NCBI GenBank assembly: GCA_000934665.2
Contig: KZ538121.1
Coordinates: 1-64,000, forward strand
Origin: Catajapyx aquilonaris
Lineage: Eukaryota
Direction of reading: 5' to 3'
Length of the DNA: 64,000 bases
In this document: positions 2,732 through 64,000 of the stretch, one piece after another
Numbering within the stretch: position 1 is the first letter of the stretch
Layout of the letters: every line of letters begins with the position of its first letter
The notes under the pieces: generated by a model
The model's input: the letters and a program-made list of their open reading frames with translations, nothing else
Told to the model about the DNA's origin: nothing
Databases searched by the model: none
Program-made: the position numbers and the translations under genes

Positions 2732-4178
2732 TCATTTGGATGACCCGCCCTTCCTGGACGACGCGGCGGCTGAATCCGATGCCCCGGACGTCTTCCTGGT
2801 GAGTCTGGTTCCGCTGCTTGGGGTTCCAGACCTTCGGAAATAAAACCACGATGTTAACGAACAATACATTGCTAATGATCATGCCCATAGGACACTACGG
2901 TTGGTCGACTAATTTCGCACACAACACACCAGTTCTTACCTGGAGGTCGGGATATTTGAGGTCGAAGTTGCGGACCTGCAATCCAGGCACCGTCATTAGT
3001 AAGTGTAATCAACATGCATTAACTACTTGAAAAAGGGACTACCACAAAAGAGAGAGAGAGATTTACCCGGTTAAAAGGACAGGGATGCTTTGAGTCGAGA
3101 GATTCTGAGGACGCACCGATCTGGAGGTGGAAGAGATAAAAGACAACCAATAGACACACGCATGCAACGAAAGGAGTCGTCTATACTAAGTACTCGGAAG
3201 GACGGGGGGAAGTGACGTGCAACGGAAAACACGCACCACACGGATTACATGTATAGTTACTGTACCTAGGCGAGACCGAACTGGACCCCACAAAAACTGG
3301 AATCCGTGACGCGCTGCAAAGCGTGAGGTTCACAGCGAGAAGAGTTGGGGAAAGAAAAAAAGAGCCAAGTTCAGAGAGAGAGAAAGGTAACGAGGAGAGA
3401 GAGAGAGACTTAATTAACACCTTGTTACGCTTAGTGCCAACACCAAATTGTGTTAATTGGCAACACCAGTCAGGTGATTGACATTTAAATAAGTAGGTGG
3501 CCATGCGCTTTGCGAATGGGTTAACCAAAATTAGTTACCTATCTCTTGCGGCTGCCAGTGCGGGGATGCTGGACGCTGAGGTAGCTCGGTGAATGGGACA
3601 AGGGCTAGCAAAAGAATCAGTGAGAAAGCGGCGGTCGATTAAACGACATGCATGTTAAAATTAATATGCGCAAAGCGAAATTAAATATTGCGGCGTAATT
3701 AGTGAGTGAGTAAGAGCTGCCGAGGGACTTACCGGTCGGATCCGCTTGGTGTTCGCACCCGTGTGGCCGTCCCGTTTACGCCTTTTGCACCCGGGGTGCC
3801 TCCGCGGGACGTCCGGGTTACCGTCTGTCCCGCTCTCCTCACTGGGATGCGGCTGGGAGTGCTGCCGTCATCTGCAAATGGACATGGTTACGACACATGT
3901 CACGTGTCTGCAACGGACAGGACATTACCTGTACTGTCAAGCGACATGTTGGATCCATGCCTGCTGACAGGTCGGCTGGGTGGCCGTGAGCCGGGTCGTG
4001 ACCCAGGCAGACTCCCAGGCGACAGGGTGCTGCGTCCGGCCCCGGAGCTGCCCAGGGGCGAGCGGCGGGGGGTCAGGCGGGAGAAGGAACCCTCGGTGTC
4101 GCTCAAGCTGTCCGGCGTTCCAGCCGAAGCCGCCCTGCCTTTCCCCATGGGAAGGCTGCGAGTACTTCGCTCGCGGAC
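2732..4178 (-). CDS. shot: shot C-terminal GSR/SxIP tail: exons 3929-4178, 3733-3871, 3539-3604, 3266-3313, 3067-3120, 2940-2975, 2732-2831 (TGA at 2734-2732)
   Basis: [11 protein letters not shown]...[30 protein letters not shown] motifs; consistent phases to the stop. Confidence 0.8.
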
Positions 4179-59743: not shown

Positions 59744-61145
59744 TTAAAACTGTGGGAGCTCCGGAAGGTCCACGGAGAAGTCTTTCAGATGCGGGACGTC
59801 CGCTGCGGCCACCACGCCCCAGACGGCTTCCAGGTTGCGGTTCAGCTGGCTCTTCTCGGCCTCCAGGGCCACCACCACCTTCTCCTTGTGCCGCAGAAGC
59901 CCCTTCAGTCGCCTGGCCTCCTTCCGGTGTTCGTCCTGACCCCGCTTCACAGCCACCTTCGTCTCCTCCAGCTGGGCTTTCAGCCGCTGCGTCCGCCTTG
60001 TCCACTCCTGCCGCTGCTCCCGCAACTTGCGCCGCATCTTGAACAGCGAGTCCTGAGACAGCCTCAACCCCTTCATGTTCTCACGCTCGTCGTCCAGAAG
60101 CTTCTCCAGGGACGCACGTTCTTCCAGTACATGCTCGGCCAGCTGGACCACATCGGACACGTAATCGGACGCAGCCCACTGGCTCCGTTGGCACTCCTGA
60201 AGCCGGCGGGTCAGCTCACGTATCTGCGCAAAAATCAGATAGTCATTCATGCAATGAGAGTTAAAGTCGTAGACAGCGTACCTCAGACTGGTGCACCTGA
60301 AGCTGCTCAGCGGCCGCTGCCAGTTTGGATTCCGACCGGATCTGCTCGGCGCCAGCTTCAGCCAGCTGGGCGTTCAGCCGCATCTTCTCAGTCTCCGAGG
60401 CAGTCAGCTGCTCCGAAATTCGCTTCCTTTCGCTCCTGTAGTTTATCTTCAGCTCCTCAAACAGCTGCTTGCATTGTTCCACATCATTCTTGTGCTTCAC
60501 TGCAGGTACGGTGTGCTTCAGCTCGGCCTTCAGTCGCTCGTTCTCCGCCCGCAGGAGCGCCATCTCCCGCATGTTGGCCGCAGCATCCTTCTCCAGCGTC
60601 TCCGTGCGGTCCTGCCATATGGCGCTCTCCTGAATCGAATTGCTGGCCAGCTTGTCATACTTTTCCCGCAGCATCTGCAGCTGCTCCTCCAATATCGCGT
60701 TTTCCTCCAGGACCAATCCGGCGCTATCCCGCATCTCGCTCCACTCGTCGTACGATATAGCGCCTTTGGTGCAAGCCGACTTCAGCTTCCGGTGCAGCTC
60801 CTCATTCTCCGCTGACGTCTCACCGCATTTGACCTTCGCTGCCTGGACAGCCGCTTCGTACTCAGCTATTGCTTCGTCCCTATCCGCCAAGCTCTCGTCG
60901 TACGCCTCCAAAAGCGGCATCAACCGCCTCCGCATCTTCAGTATCTCCCACTCTGTTCCAGCCCCTTCAGACGGTGGCGGACCGTACTTATCCCTGTACC
61001 CGCTTAACACGGAGTTAAGCCGGAAGACAAGGTTCTTCATCATATCCGCATCTTCCTTCGCTTCCTTCAGCTGCACCTGCATGCTCCGGGTGTCCTTCCG
61101 ACGAGCCTTTGGAGTCGGTCGGGCTTCCAATTTAGGCGAATCCAT
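59744..61145 (-). CDS. CEP89: Centrosomal protein 89 (CEP89/CCDC123)-like coiled-coil protein; exons 60282-61145 and 59744-60223 (possible short upstream coding exon 61228-61289)
   Basis: VFRLNSVLSGYRDK, LMPLLEAYD, ENEELH...EW....AGLVLEENAILEEQL, LAEHVLEER, LEAVW match recalled CEP89 motifs in order; phase-0 intron; AATAAA at 59698-59703. Confidence 0.8.
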
Positions 61146-62030
61146 CCTACTGTTGGTTTGCTACAAAATAAAATTCCTTGTCACTTTATATTCCAATGCA
61201 TTATATGTCAACCGCCATATTTTCTACCATGCTGTCAGGACCGCTGTTCCAAACGTGCGGGTCAGACACTCCAGCCTTTCCTCCAACATAAACAGCACAC
61301 GAACCTTTCCTTCAGCCAGATTCAGCCGAGATTCAGACCAAAAAGTGATCGGCCATTCGCTTCGATCCGTTTCGTAGCAGCCGCCATTTTTGTTACGTCA
61401 CAAATGCAAAACCCATAGCGTAGCAGCTAGTTGGAACTGTGCTCGGGCCGAAATAAGCAGCTGTTGTCGAATAGCTGCCTGGTCCGTTCCTTGTCTAAAA
61501 GTTGGCCATGTAAATGTATTTAATTAGAAAAAAAAAAAGTTTATGCAAATTTTTAATAATTAGTGTGCGAATTTAATTATTTTCATTGCCCGGTTAATTA
61601 AACTGGAGCTGATCAGTACATTTTACAATACACACATGCTACAAAAATGTACTGAAATATTAATATAAATAATTATTTACTACTTTATACACACCATCTC
61701 TTTTTATTTACCTCAAAAAAAAACAACATTGGGTGATTTTTTTTGTTTAAATACTTGAAAAAAAAAATGATAACCATGGAATGAAAAAAAACTTCCAACA
61801 AATAAACCGAACTACACTTTCGACTCCTACACAACCCTTTGCTTTTTATCTCAAAAAAAGAAAACAAAATTATATCCTGTCATTATCATTAATTGTTATG
61901 AGGTGGTCACATGATCATGGGCACGGCGTACATAAAAACAAGTCTGGCTCCCAACAAAAATTAAATCCTGTGTGTTCAAAGGCAAATTGAAGAAAGTGGC
62001 CTTTCCAAGCAATAAATCGCAGCGCAACGA

Positions 62031-62867
62031 TCAGCGCTTCCCATTGTTGTAGCTCATGGTGCGTATGGGCGCCTTGAAGTTGGCGGCCGCCGCCTGCTGC
62101 ATCTGGTACGCCAAGGGATGGATCTTGAACCCATACAGCCTGGGGAAAAAAGGGAGGTTGGATTTAGTCCCCACCGGTGTGCGGTCCATGGGAGTACCGA
62201 CCTTGGTACGAATTGGTTGGCAGGCCTCTTTGGGCGGTACTCGGGATGAACCATGAAGAGCATGTGGGGGAACCCGGTGCCAAAGTATGACCCGTCTGTG
62301 TGGTGGTGCCGGGAGGACTTGGGGCTGTACACGTCCATGCACTTGGGGCAGTACAGCTTCACCATCGCCTCGCCTGGCACGTCGGACAGGCCTGGAAAAT
62401 GAACCGGTTGCGCAATTGCATCGACGGTTTAACAGGGAAGCGTACCGATAGGCAGCATGGGCTGATTCTCGCAGTAGACCCGCGGGCAGTGTCCGAAGTC
62501 GCCAGCCTGGTACTTCTCAATCATCTGCGCGATGCCACGATTGGTGAGGATGTACCGGGAGTGGATCAGCCCGTAGAGCATCTCCGCCGCCTGCTCAATC
62601 AGGTCGGACTGGTTCGGATTGTCCTCCAGGTCGTCGTCTGCAATGAGCCGGTGAACACACGGTGTGCATGTGCAACGGTGTGCGTACGTTACCTGGCTCC
62701 AAGTCCAGGATCATGTCGAGGGCCTGCCTGTAGTGCGGGACCTGCTCGTTGAGTCCAGTGAGGTTGAACTTGTCCTGTATGTAGTCCTCGTCCACCTCGC
62801 AGAAGAACTCGTTCCCTCTCAACCCGCAGAACCAGGATATCCACGAGACCTCCTCAGAGCTGCTCAT
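62031..62867 (-). CDS. CkIIbeta: Casein kinase II beta subunit; exons 62693-62867, 62446-62637, 62202-62391, 62031-62139
   Basis: [36 protein letters not shown], zinc-finger CPRVYC...[31 protein letters not shown]. Confidence 0.98.
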
Positions 62868-62982
62868 GTCGTCGGCTGCAAAATGAATTTAACCTTTTTT
62901 AGCAGAGTGAAAGAGGCGAGCAAGAGGAAAAGGCTCAGCCTGTAGAGCCCAAGATGTCGGACTAGAGCGAAGGCGAGCTTAC

Positions 62983-63268
62983 ACTGTCCGGCGGGCAGGT
63001 GGCTCTGCTGCTGGATGTGCGGGGATTGGAGGATCCGTCGAGTGGGCGGGGCCAGGGCGTCGGACGCCGACCACGACGCAGACGCCCCCACCGTCGACGA
63101 GCACATGTTGCCGACGCTGGACACTCCGCTGGACGCCGACCGTCGCATCCTTCTCACGTTCCAAAAATGCAACAACAATAGAGCAATACCCAGGGCAACA
63201 ATGGGAGCATTTGTATATTTCGGGGAATGGCAACACTGGGGGCTGGTGGCCACACTGCAAGCGGCCAT
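62983..63268 (-). CDS. CkIIbeta: Upstream CK2 beta exon; open and in frame with the canonical ATG (possible ~98-aa N-terminal extension, otherwise 5' UTR)
   Basis: Donor CAGT|GTAAGC at 62983 and acceptor TTTTGCAG|CCGACGACATG at 62875; AAGATGG start at 63268. Confidence 0.5.
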
Positions 63269-64000
63269 CTTGAATCCAGCAGGAAATTTTCTGTTTTTTT
63301 TTTTTTTTTTGTGTACAGTGTACAGAGTGTTTGCTACATAGCTGCCATTCCAACCAGTAATTTTGTATATTGTCCTCAGGTTTTTGTACTCTATGAATAA
63401 TAAATTGCCAATTGAAGCACACATGCTTCCTGGCTGCTTGGCGTAAAAGCATGATGACGAGGAACTTTTTTCTTGCTTAATGGAGAGGCCTAGAGATGCA
63501 TTTAGGAGAGGAGGGTCCTCCGCTATGCTGAGAAGGGTCACCACTGGTTGGTCACCTGGAGGAGGTCACCAGAAATTAATTTATAGCGGCAAACCCGTAT
63601 GTATAGTGTCAGAAAAATAAGAAGAAGCCTATAGCTACTTTTAGCAGATCATATTATGAACAAGTAATAAAGGGCATTAATGACCCCCTTATTAACCTTG
63701 AAACTGCGCATTTTCTCGACAGTGAGAAATTAATATGGGCAACATACGCAGTATAACTTGAGTGCTCGGATGCGAAGAAGAAGCAGCTGGCATGCTGGCT
63801 ATGCACACGCGTCTATTCGCGAATGATTCCTTTGAGGAGAGTATTATCATAATTTATGCCATGATCTCTCCACCACCTGTCTGGATACATAATTCGATCA
63901 TGGATTCGAACAATTCGAACACGTGACTTCATTATTTTCATGAGACATCATTATGTCTGGAATGAGATGCTGATGGGAACGGAACATACTAATTCGAGAT

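What the first reader, a model, noticed from the sequence alone, without database searches (positions are those of the whole stretch)
62875..63268. CK2 beta with a possible in-frame membrane-anchor N-terminal extension
Seen: exon 62983-63268 starts at AAGATGG, is stop-free and splices (phase 1, CAG T|CC GAC GAC ATG) in frame onto MSSSEEVSW. This adds ~98 aa: MAACSVATSPQCCHSPKYTNAPIVALGIALLLLHFWNVRRMRRSASSGVSS...HLPAGQSDD, with a ~14-17 residue hydrophobic stretch followed by RRMRR and a Ser-rich spacer. Known: CK2 beta normally starts at MSSSEE and is soluble. Inference: a signal-anchor isoform could tether the CK2 holoenzyme to a membrane, with further in-frame ATGs (MRRS, MCSS, MSSS) giving soluble forms.
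Basis: partly seen in the sequence, partly recalled or inferred. Interest (0 to 1): 0.7.

Follow-up and report, generated by a model that had tools for sequence, protein, structure and literature searches.

The report
CK2 beta: extension plausible, anchor unlikely
This is the single gene for the regulatory subunit of the kinase CK2 in an arthropod-like animal; the one RNA data set found shows the normal start, an upstream exon likely adds a soluble 58-residue tail in some transcripts, and the proposed membrane anchor is probably untranslated promoter DNA.

Summary
The open frame is real: ATG 63268 to donor 62983 has no stop and joins MSSSEE in frame through acceptor 62875 (98 codons). It has two unlike halves. 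The 3' 55 codons, from ATG 63148 to the donor, look coding (GC3 48/55, codon score 0.39 like real exons, p about 0.0003-0.003; the change point brackets that ATG). The 5' 40 codons, which hold the hydrophobic stretch, do not (GC3 22/40, score -0.35). The 63268 ATG sits in a YY1-type DNA word inside a 60-bp element duplicated 2.9 kb away at the 5' end of the opposite-strand TRM1-like gene. The only RNA run's CK2 beta contig is spliced at the three coding introns but reads unspliced through acceptor 62875 to 62966, with an in-frame stop before MSSSEE. No homologue of the extension was found and no close relative was available. Best reading: canonical CK2 beta from a proximal start, plus a likely alternative first exon giving a soluble Ser-rich extension. 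Membrane-anchored isoform about 12%.

The parts
62693..62867 (-). CK2 beta first canonical coding segment (ATG 62867, MSSSEEVSW...)
   Evidence: Pfam CK_II_beta; RNA contig; only copy in the genome
62446..62637 (-). CK2 beta coding exon
   Evidence: RNA joints; translation
62202..62391 (-). CK2 beta coding exon
   Evidence: RNA joints; translation
61784..62139 (-). Last exon: coding to the stop at about 62031-62033, then 3' UTR as far as the contig reaches
   Evidence: RNA contig; ORF list
62868..62966 (-). Leader of the RNA-observed transcript, unspliced across 62875/62876; no ATG, in-frame TAA at 62891-62889
   Evidence: contig piece 62693-62966; translation
62950..62958 (-). YY1-type word GACATCTTG, 8 nt inside the contig's 5' end (weak hint of a proximal start site)
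   Evidence: pattern defined after seeing the data; the ACAT variant of the YY1 site is recalled
62876..62982 (-). Proposed intron, 107 nt, GTAAGC...TTTTGCAG; not seen spliced
   Evidence: sequence; 11 RNA-confirmed short introns nearby are 45-70 nt
62983..63148 (-). Coding-like part of the upstream exon (ATG 63148, MRRSASS..., 55 codons; 58-aa soluble extension if spliced; 44 aa from ATG 63106)
   Evidence: GC3 48/55, synonymous-codon score 0.39; change point 63139-63163
63149..63268 (-). Non-coding-like part of the proposed exon, including the hydrophobic stretch and an out-of-frame uORF at 63210
   Evidence: GC3 22/40, score -0.35; periodic Markov score -0.38 for the first 50 codons
63222..63283 (+). 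Element copy A: two TGGCNACACTG words plus GCCATCTTG (the 63268 ATG read on the other strand); 44 of 62 columns identical to copy B at contig 66125-66183, where the TRM1-like RNA contig begins
63282..63576 (+). Interspersed repeat, first piece of a repeat-rich block (contig 63282-66123) that lies between copies A and B
   Evidence: 12 other places at 65-87% identity

Best explanation
The gene is an ordinary single-copy CK2 beta whose RNA-observed leader gives the canonical MSSSEE protein, and it likely has a second, upstream first exon whose translated part begins at ATG 63148 and would add a soluble, Ser-rich 58-residue N-terminal tail, while the hydrophobic stretch further upstream is probably promoter DNA that is not translated. 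Shown: the gene structure, the unspliced leader with an in-frame stop, the codon bias limited to 63148-62983, and the duplicated element that holds the 63268 ATG. Inferred: CK2 beta and the TRM1-like gene once stood head to head around one promoter; a 2.84-kb repeat-rich block came to lie between two copies of the 60-bp element, copy B now marking the TRM1-like 5' end and copy A staying upstream of CK2 beta. The distal CK2 beta start would then lie between copy A and 63148, so the first in-frame ATG on that mRNA is 63148. Inferred function: the tail is disordered, leaves the C-terminal alpha-binding region and zinc finger untouched, and would tune holoenzyme activity, stability or location, as the unrelated plant N-terminal extension does.
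For: RNA contig (1012 nt) is spliced at three coding introns and continuous from 62693 to 62966; that leader has no ATG and an in-frame stop. Codon bias in the extension frame: 63148-62984 GC1/2/3 = 33/36/48 of 55, p = 0.002 (fixed phase) and 0.003 (any phase), synonymous score 0.39-0.40, 1 of 4000 dinucleotide shuffles as high; 21 real exon chunks score -0.11 to 0.58 (first three CK2 beta chunks 0.39-0.46); five neighbouring leader/UTR stretches reach at most 0.05 in any of their three sense frames. The likelihood change point, found without using the ATG, is 63139-63163, and GC3 drops from 13/15 to 8/15 after the donor. 5' 40 codons: GC3 22/40, p = 0.42, score -0.35. Compound pattern TGGCNACACTG-N2-12-GCCATYTTG has 4 matches in 286 Mb, 0 for the control, two of them A and B; A-B local score 59 against a best of 43 in 174 chunks of other held own-genome DNA; copy B read from its matching ATG stops after 5 codons and differs from A by three 1-nt gaps. 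TGGCAACACTGG occurs 290 times against 14 for the control (at least 12 are one tandem array). An acceptor-like YAG lies within 12 nt before the ATG in 7 of 18 intron-bearing CK2 beta loci from other organisms.
Against: The 62983-62875 junction was not seen; only one run was listed, as contigs, which cannot show a start site or rare forms. A plus-strand frame shares the same third codon positions and scores 0.29 in the synonymous test and as well or better in the periodic Markov test (0.02-0.07 against 0.01-0.05 in the 3' part; best of six over the whole exon), so the bias does not by itself fix the strand. GC2 is 0.60 over the exon against 0.36-0.42 in real exons. The proposed intron is 107 nt against 45-70 nt for 11 confirmed short introns. 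No homologue of the extension. Head-to-head ancestry with TRM1-like has no support from other species: no TRM1-like match in 80 metagenome loci, all distant. Training set for the codon tests is small (five coding stretches from this contig).
Confidence: 0.5

Rival explanations
1. Nothing upstream of 62966 is translated today: the whole 62983-63268 stretch is promoter (or a decayed former exon) and the gene makes only canonical CK2 beta.
For: Only the unspliced leader is seen in RNA; 4 of 6 frames are open, so openness is compositional; CpG observed/expected about 1.1 at 63000-63199; no homologue; of 53 metagenome loci with a recognisable start only 2 have an in-frame upstream Met.
Against: Does not explain a 3-periodic, codon-usage-matched segment that starts at an ATG and ends at a donor in the right phase, unless the exon died recently.
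Confidence: 0.3
2. One reading: a transcript starts upstream of 63268 and the 98-aa extension acts as a reverse signal-anchor (N out, basic RRMRR and CK2 beta in the cytosol), tethering CK2 to ER or another membrane.
For: Frame open and in phase; ATG in the best Kozak context; positive charges follow the apolar stretch (sequence; positive-inside rule recalled); the 3' half is coding-like; in human promoters YY1 sites often overlap real start codons (PMC3491394, passages); the neighbouring gene's contig begins at a sense AAAATGGCG word, so such a word can mark a 5' end here. A young, unselected 5' addition would show no codon bias.
Against: No coding signal over the first 40 codons; the first 14 residues are spelled by DNA words shared with copy B; by analogy with B the element marks a plus-strand 5' end near 63253, so a minus-strand start beyond 63268 would overlap it; DNA from 63282 on is a repeat; the apolar core is only 11-15 residues; about 15% of open resamplings and 3 of 21 unrelated annotated CK2 beta extensions are as hydrophobic; the neighbouring gene's AAAATGG ATG opens only a 21-codon uORF.
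Confidence: 0.12
3. The periodic segment is a piece of a plus-strand coding sequence (frame 62946-63341), for example a lost 5' exon of a divergent gene, and its fit to CK2 beta is chance.
For: Shares third positions; best frame of six in the Markov test over the whole exon; synonymous score 0.29.
Against: No Pfam family; only 2 weak hits among 1.84 billion proteins (E 4e-4, 1e-3; the one fetched is a repeat protein); no second copy in the genome; the bias extends upstream of its only early ATG and has no clear splice sites on that strand (sequence).
Confidence: 0.08

Closest known systems
Metazoan CK2 regulatory subunit beta (CSNK2B, Drosophila CkIIbeta; Pfam PF01214)
   Same: Core protein MSSSEE to YNNGKR, about 221 aa, Pfam match over cut-off; C-terminal exon 69-90% identical to 57 database proteins, the named ones mostly arthropod.
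   Different: No extension of this sequence in any relative found; lacks the basic KRK leader that ends 10 of 21 annotated extensions.
Drosophila CK2 beta isoforms
   Same: [quoted passage not shown]
   Different: The five Drosophila proteins differ only in the C-terminal 15-20 residues (same passages); here the variation would be N-terminal.
Plant CK2 beta N-terminal extension (maize CK2beta1)
   Same: About 90-aa extension before the core that lowers holoenzyme activity and stabilises the protein (PMC3137599, abstract): a precedent for a soluble regulatory tail.
   Different: Constitutive and conserved across land plants; here an unconfirmed alternative exon with no conservation shown. Sequence homology to plant tails was not tested directly; the homologue searches with the extension found nothing.
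YY1-type promoter word AANATGGN(C/G)
   Same: CAAGATGGCCG at 63272-63262 fits the consensus quoted in PMC3491394 (passages); TTCAAGATGGCCGC occurs 408 times against 1 control, 15 of 21 oriented copies looked at in one inverted-repeat family and 6 in unrelated contexts.
   Different: Binding not tested; this copy shares no flank with the inverted-repeat family.

Membership tests
CK2 beta (PF01214) | Profile match over the curated cut-off | tested here: met
   67.8 bits for the first segment; 147.5 and 65.6 bits in the genome search
CK2 beta (PF01214) | N-terminal autophosphorylation motif MSSSEE, acidic loop, CxxC...CxxC zinc finger, C-terminal tail | tested here: met
   All present in the spliced translation; feature list recalled
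Signal-anchored (membrane-tethered) isoform | mRNA that includes ATG 63268 and the 62983-62875 junction | tested here: inconclusive
   Only contig is unspliced to 62966; contigs cannot exclude a rare form
Signal-anchored (membrane-tethered) isoform | Apolar segment of about 17-21 residues | tested here: inconclusive
   11-15 residue core, 19-residue mean 1.66; no DeepTMHMM/SignalP available
Signal-anchored (membrane-tethered) isoform | Coding signature over the anchor codons | tested here: not met
   GC3 22/40, score -0.35; 5/13 against 12/13 in a control signal exon
Signal-anchored (membrane-tethered) isoform | Conservation (dN/dS, no stops) in close relatives | not testable with these tools
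   No relatives held for this genome; nearest loci at most 87% identical over the core exon
Alternative coding first exon (soluble extension) | ATG, open frame, donor, in phase with the next exon | tested here: met
Alternative coding first exon (soluble extension) | Codon bias matching the genome's genes between ATG and donor | tested here: met
   strand ambiguity remains
Alternative coding first exon (soluble extension) | Spliced RNA or peptide evidence | tested here: inconclusive
   not seen in the one run
YY1 binding site | Protein binding to the word | not testable with these tools
   sequence match only

The most novel reading that the evidence does not exclude
A promoter duplication and repeat insertion created a new start upstream of an existing coding first exon, so that promoter DNA is now translated into a de novo signal-anchor and one CK2 beta isoform tethers the CK2 holoenzyme to a membrane.
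Probability: 0.12. Interest if true: 0.65.

Novelty: new variant of a known kind. Interest (0 to 1): 0.25.

Why it matters
If the soluble extension is real it is one more lineage-specific N-terminal tail on a very conserved regulatory subunit, of modest interest, and a gene-model correction. If the anchored form were real it would be a built-in way to localise a constitutively active kinase; three literature searches (listings only) showed no membrane-anchored CK2 beta isoform. The case also shows a trap for genome scans: a YY1-type promoter word reads as a perfect Kozak ATG.

Tried and rejected
No run on record as RNA was listed; the single run of unknown kind proved spliced and 99+% alike. 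It has no contig on 62994-64000 at 90% or 80% likeness; absence of cover is not used as evidence. Homologue searches with the extension: none among 587 longer candidates, 7 near-length candidates, 599 metagenome pattern hits, Pfam; Atlas best 0.78 hydrophobin, below the chance range; no alignment to a 60-aa Ser-rich extension of another CK2 beta (E 4.9) or to 21 annotated extensions. Idea that the 63268 ATG is the terminal repeat of a MITE: rejected, flanks differ from that family. Idea that elements A/B are ends of the neighbouring repeat: not supported, they are absent next to the repeat copies fetched from contigs C83 and C159. Trans-splicing at 62962: no loose end on the contig. GC-by-position figures labelled 'ext'/'core' came from a wrong acceptor and were discarded (redone); counts for AANATGG sites and A-B background mixed in other organisms' loci and were redone on own-genome DNA. 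Contig ends versus the strict G[AC]CATYTTG word: 2 of 3 ends tested lie within 16 nt (background 0.5% of bases), the third fits only the looser AANATGGCG; the SMG7-like contig did not reach its word and the secreted-peptide gene shows none, and the pattern was chosen afterwards, so this is only a hint. The bacterial promoter scan does not apply. Searches for a paper naming the TGGCAAC word found nothing relevant; one search gave nothing used; PMC4528330 has no CK2 mention. Earlier-findings look-ups were empty. No structure prediction was run.

Full report
Observation. The gene on the minus strand is CK2 beta (Pfam PF01214), the only copy in a 286-Mb genome. Its last exon is 69-90% identical to 57 database proteins, the named ones mostly insects, a crab, mites and ticks, so the organism is arthropod-like (inference). 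In-frame ATGs also stand at 63148 and 63106 (58 and 44 extra residues), and an out-of-frame ATG at 63210 opens an 18-codon uORF. The apolar stretch has an 11-15 residue core and a 19-residue hydropathy mean of 1.66.

Is openness more than chance? Not much. First-order resampling leaves the frame open in 13-16% of trials, and 15% of those are as hydrophobic. Four of six frames are open over the same 285 nt, against 1-3 in 12 real exon chunks. Among 142 AANATGG[CG] sites in 259 kb of held own-genome DNA, 11 open 95 codons and 2, this one included, are as hydrophobic.

RNA. One run was listed; its contigs are spliced and 99+% alike. The CK2 beta contig (1012 nt) joins the three coding introns but runs without a break from 62693 to 62966, 91 nt into the proposed intron, with no loose end. 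That leader has no ATG and an in-frame TAA eight codons before MSSSEE, so it gives the canonical protein. Contigs cannot show a start site or exclude rare forms. That the contig is not broken at 62875 suggests a spliced form is absent or minor in this sample (inference from how such assemblers prune branches, recalled). A retained first intron is possible, but the contig stops 16 nt short of the donor.

Where the 63268 ATG comes from. It is the CAT of GCCATCTTG on the plus strand, a YY1-type word (consensus quoted in PMC3491394, passages). The pattern TGGCNACACTG-N2-12-GCCATYTTG has four matches in the genome and none for the control; two are 63247-63272 and contig position 66148-66172. These copies (A 63222-63283, B 66125-66183) agree at 44 of 62 columns, score 59 against a best of 43 in 174 chunks of other held DNA, and flank a 2.84-kb block made of pieces repeated elsewhere, including a secreted-peptide gene. 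The contig of the plus-strand TRM1-like gene (Pfam TRM) begins inside copy B (L006:4155). Read from its matching ATG, copy B stops after five codons. So the first 14 residues of the proposed extension are spelled by DNA words kept as DNA. The simplest history is a head-to-head CK2 beta/TRM1-like promoter split by an insertion with duplication of the element (inference; no relative available to test it, and no TRM1-like match in 80 distant loci). Against my reading: YY1 sites do overlap real start codons in human genes, and the neighbouring gene's contig begins at a sense AAAATGGCG word, although that ATG opens only a 21-codon uORF.

The exon has two halves. I first took the whole exon for promoter DNA; corrected codon counts changed that. 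From ATG 63148 to the donor, G/C at codon positions 1, 2, 3 is 33, 36, 48 of 55 (p = 0.002 fixed phase, 0.003 any phase, 4000 dinucleotide shuffles) and the synonymous-codon score is 0.39-0.40 (1 of 4000 shuffles), like the first CK2 beta chunks (0.39-0.46); 21 real chunks range from -0.11 to 0.58 and five nearby leader/UTR stretches reach at most 0.05. The change point found without reference to ATGs is 63139-63163, and the bias drops after the donor. The first 40 codons show nothing (22 of 40, p = 0.42, score -0.35), and the 13 hydrophobic codons end in G/C 5 times against 12 of 13 in the signal-peptide exon of the expressed gene next door. Caveats: a plus-strand frame shares the third positions, scores 0.29, and wins the cruder Markov test over the whole exon; it has no family, no second copy and only two weak hits, and its boundaries do not fit an ATG or splice sites as well. 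The training set is five coding stretches. GC2 is high (0.60) and the intron would be long for this region (107 nt against 45-70 nt). In favour of the acceptor, 7 of 18 intron-bearing CK2 beta loci of other organisms have an acceptor-like YAG within 12 nt before the ATG.

Relatives. The extension has no homologue in the searches run. Of 80 metagenome loci returned (419 confirmed), 53 show the canonical start, 3 being duplicates; 2 have an in-frame upstream Met (26 and 1 residues) and none has an open leader with a 19-residue mean above 1.24; some of these are genomic, where the upstream DNA is intron. Of 57 proteins, 27 show the canonical start and 21 of those are annotated with an extension; 3 have a window of 1.65 or more, none aligns to this one. 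None is close enough to test the orthologous exon.

Mechanism. Most likely (0.5): a proximal start gives canonical CK2 beta; a distal start between element A and 63148 gives an mRNA spliced 62983-62875 that would encode a soluble Ser-rich 58-residue tail, a regulatory addition by analogy with the plant extension (PMC3137599, abstract). Canonical protein only: 0.3. Membrane anchor: 0.12. Plus-strand exon: 0.08.

Comparison with what is known. Drosophila CK2 beta has alternative 5' exons and five proteins that differ at the C-terminus (PMC5374408, passages and one reference title). Searches (listings and abstract starts only) showed no membrane-anchored CK2 beta isoform; the library lacks most subscription papers, and no supplements were read. 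Verdict: observation confirmed, interpretation partly supported, probable new variant of a known kind, interest 0.25.

Noticed in passing
L074, L075, L078, L079, L080, L086 (metagenome CK2 beta loci, 18-21 nt before the ATG); proteins P0017, P0018, P0022, P0029, P0030, P0042, P0045, P0046, P0051, P0059: A short basic leader ending KRK/RRR precedes MSSSEE in many arthropod-type CK2 beta sequences. In six loci it begins with an in-frame ACG with A at -3 and shows synonymous variation; 10 of 21 annotated extensions end in KRK, mostly SVANQxxKRK. Candidate near-cognate start adding an NLS-like leader; one literature search and PMC4528330 passages showed no mention. Absent from this window's gene.
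   Followed up: partly
L071:62-649 and L073:81-485: Two intronless CK2 beta sequences carry 196- and 135-codon open, Met-free, Ser/Asn-rich leaders that share a conserved block (DSSLxNxLKExNL): possible long non-AUG N-terminal extensions in another lineage.
   Followed up: partly
window 63282-64000 and L006:1283-4124 (contig C230:63282-66123): Repeat-rich block flanked by the direct 60-bp copies A and B; holds an expressed member of a multi-copy secreted-peptide gene family (signal-peptide exon L006:2813-2927, second exon 3490-3910; paralogues in RNA). Function not examined.
   Followed up: partly
genome-wide, e.g. L038, L043, L048, L050: MITE-like family with inverted arms about 170-190 bp apart, each holding GGCGGCCATCTTGAA, a YY1-type word.
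   Followed up: no
window 61228-61390 (-): Neighbouring coiled-coil gene (ORF 60261-61160): its first exon begins at AAAATGGCGG and that ATG opens a 21-codon uORF.
   Followed up: no
L006:4155-7752: One 3381-nt RNA contig spans the plus-strand TRM1-like gene and a convergent minus-strand gene (SMG7-like by recall, not tested), suggesting overlapping 3' ends.
   Followed up: no
G000:C53:85289-85638 (L024): Tandem array of a 26-bp unit containing TGGCAACACTGG.
   Followed up: no
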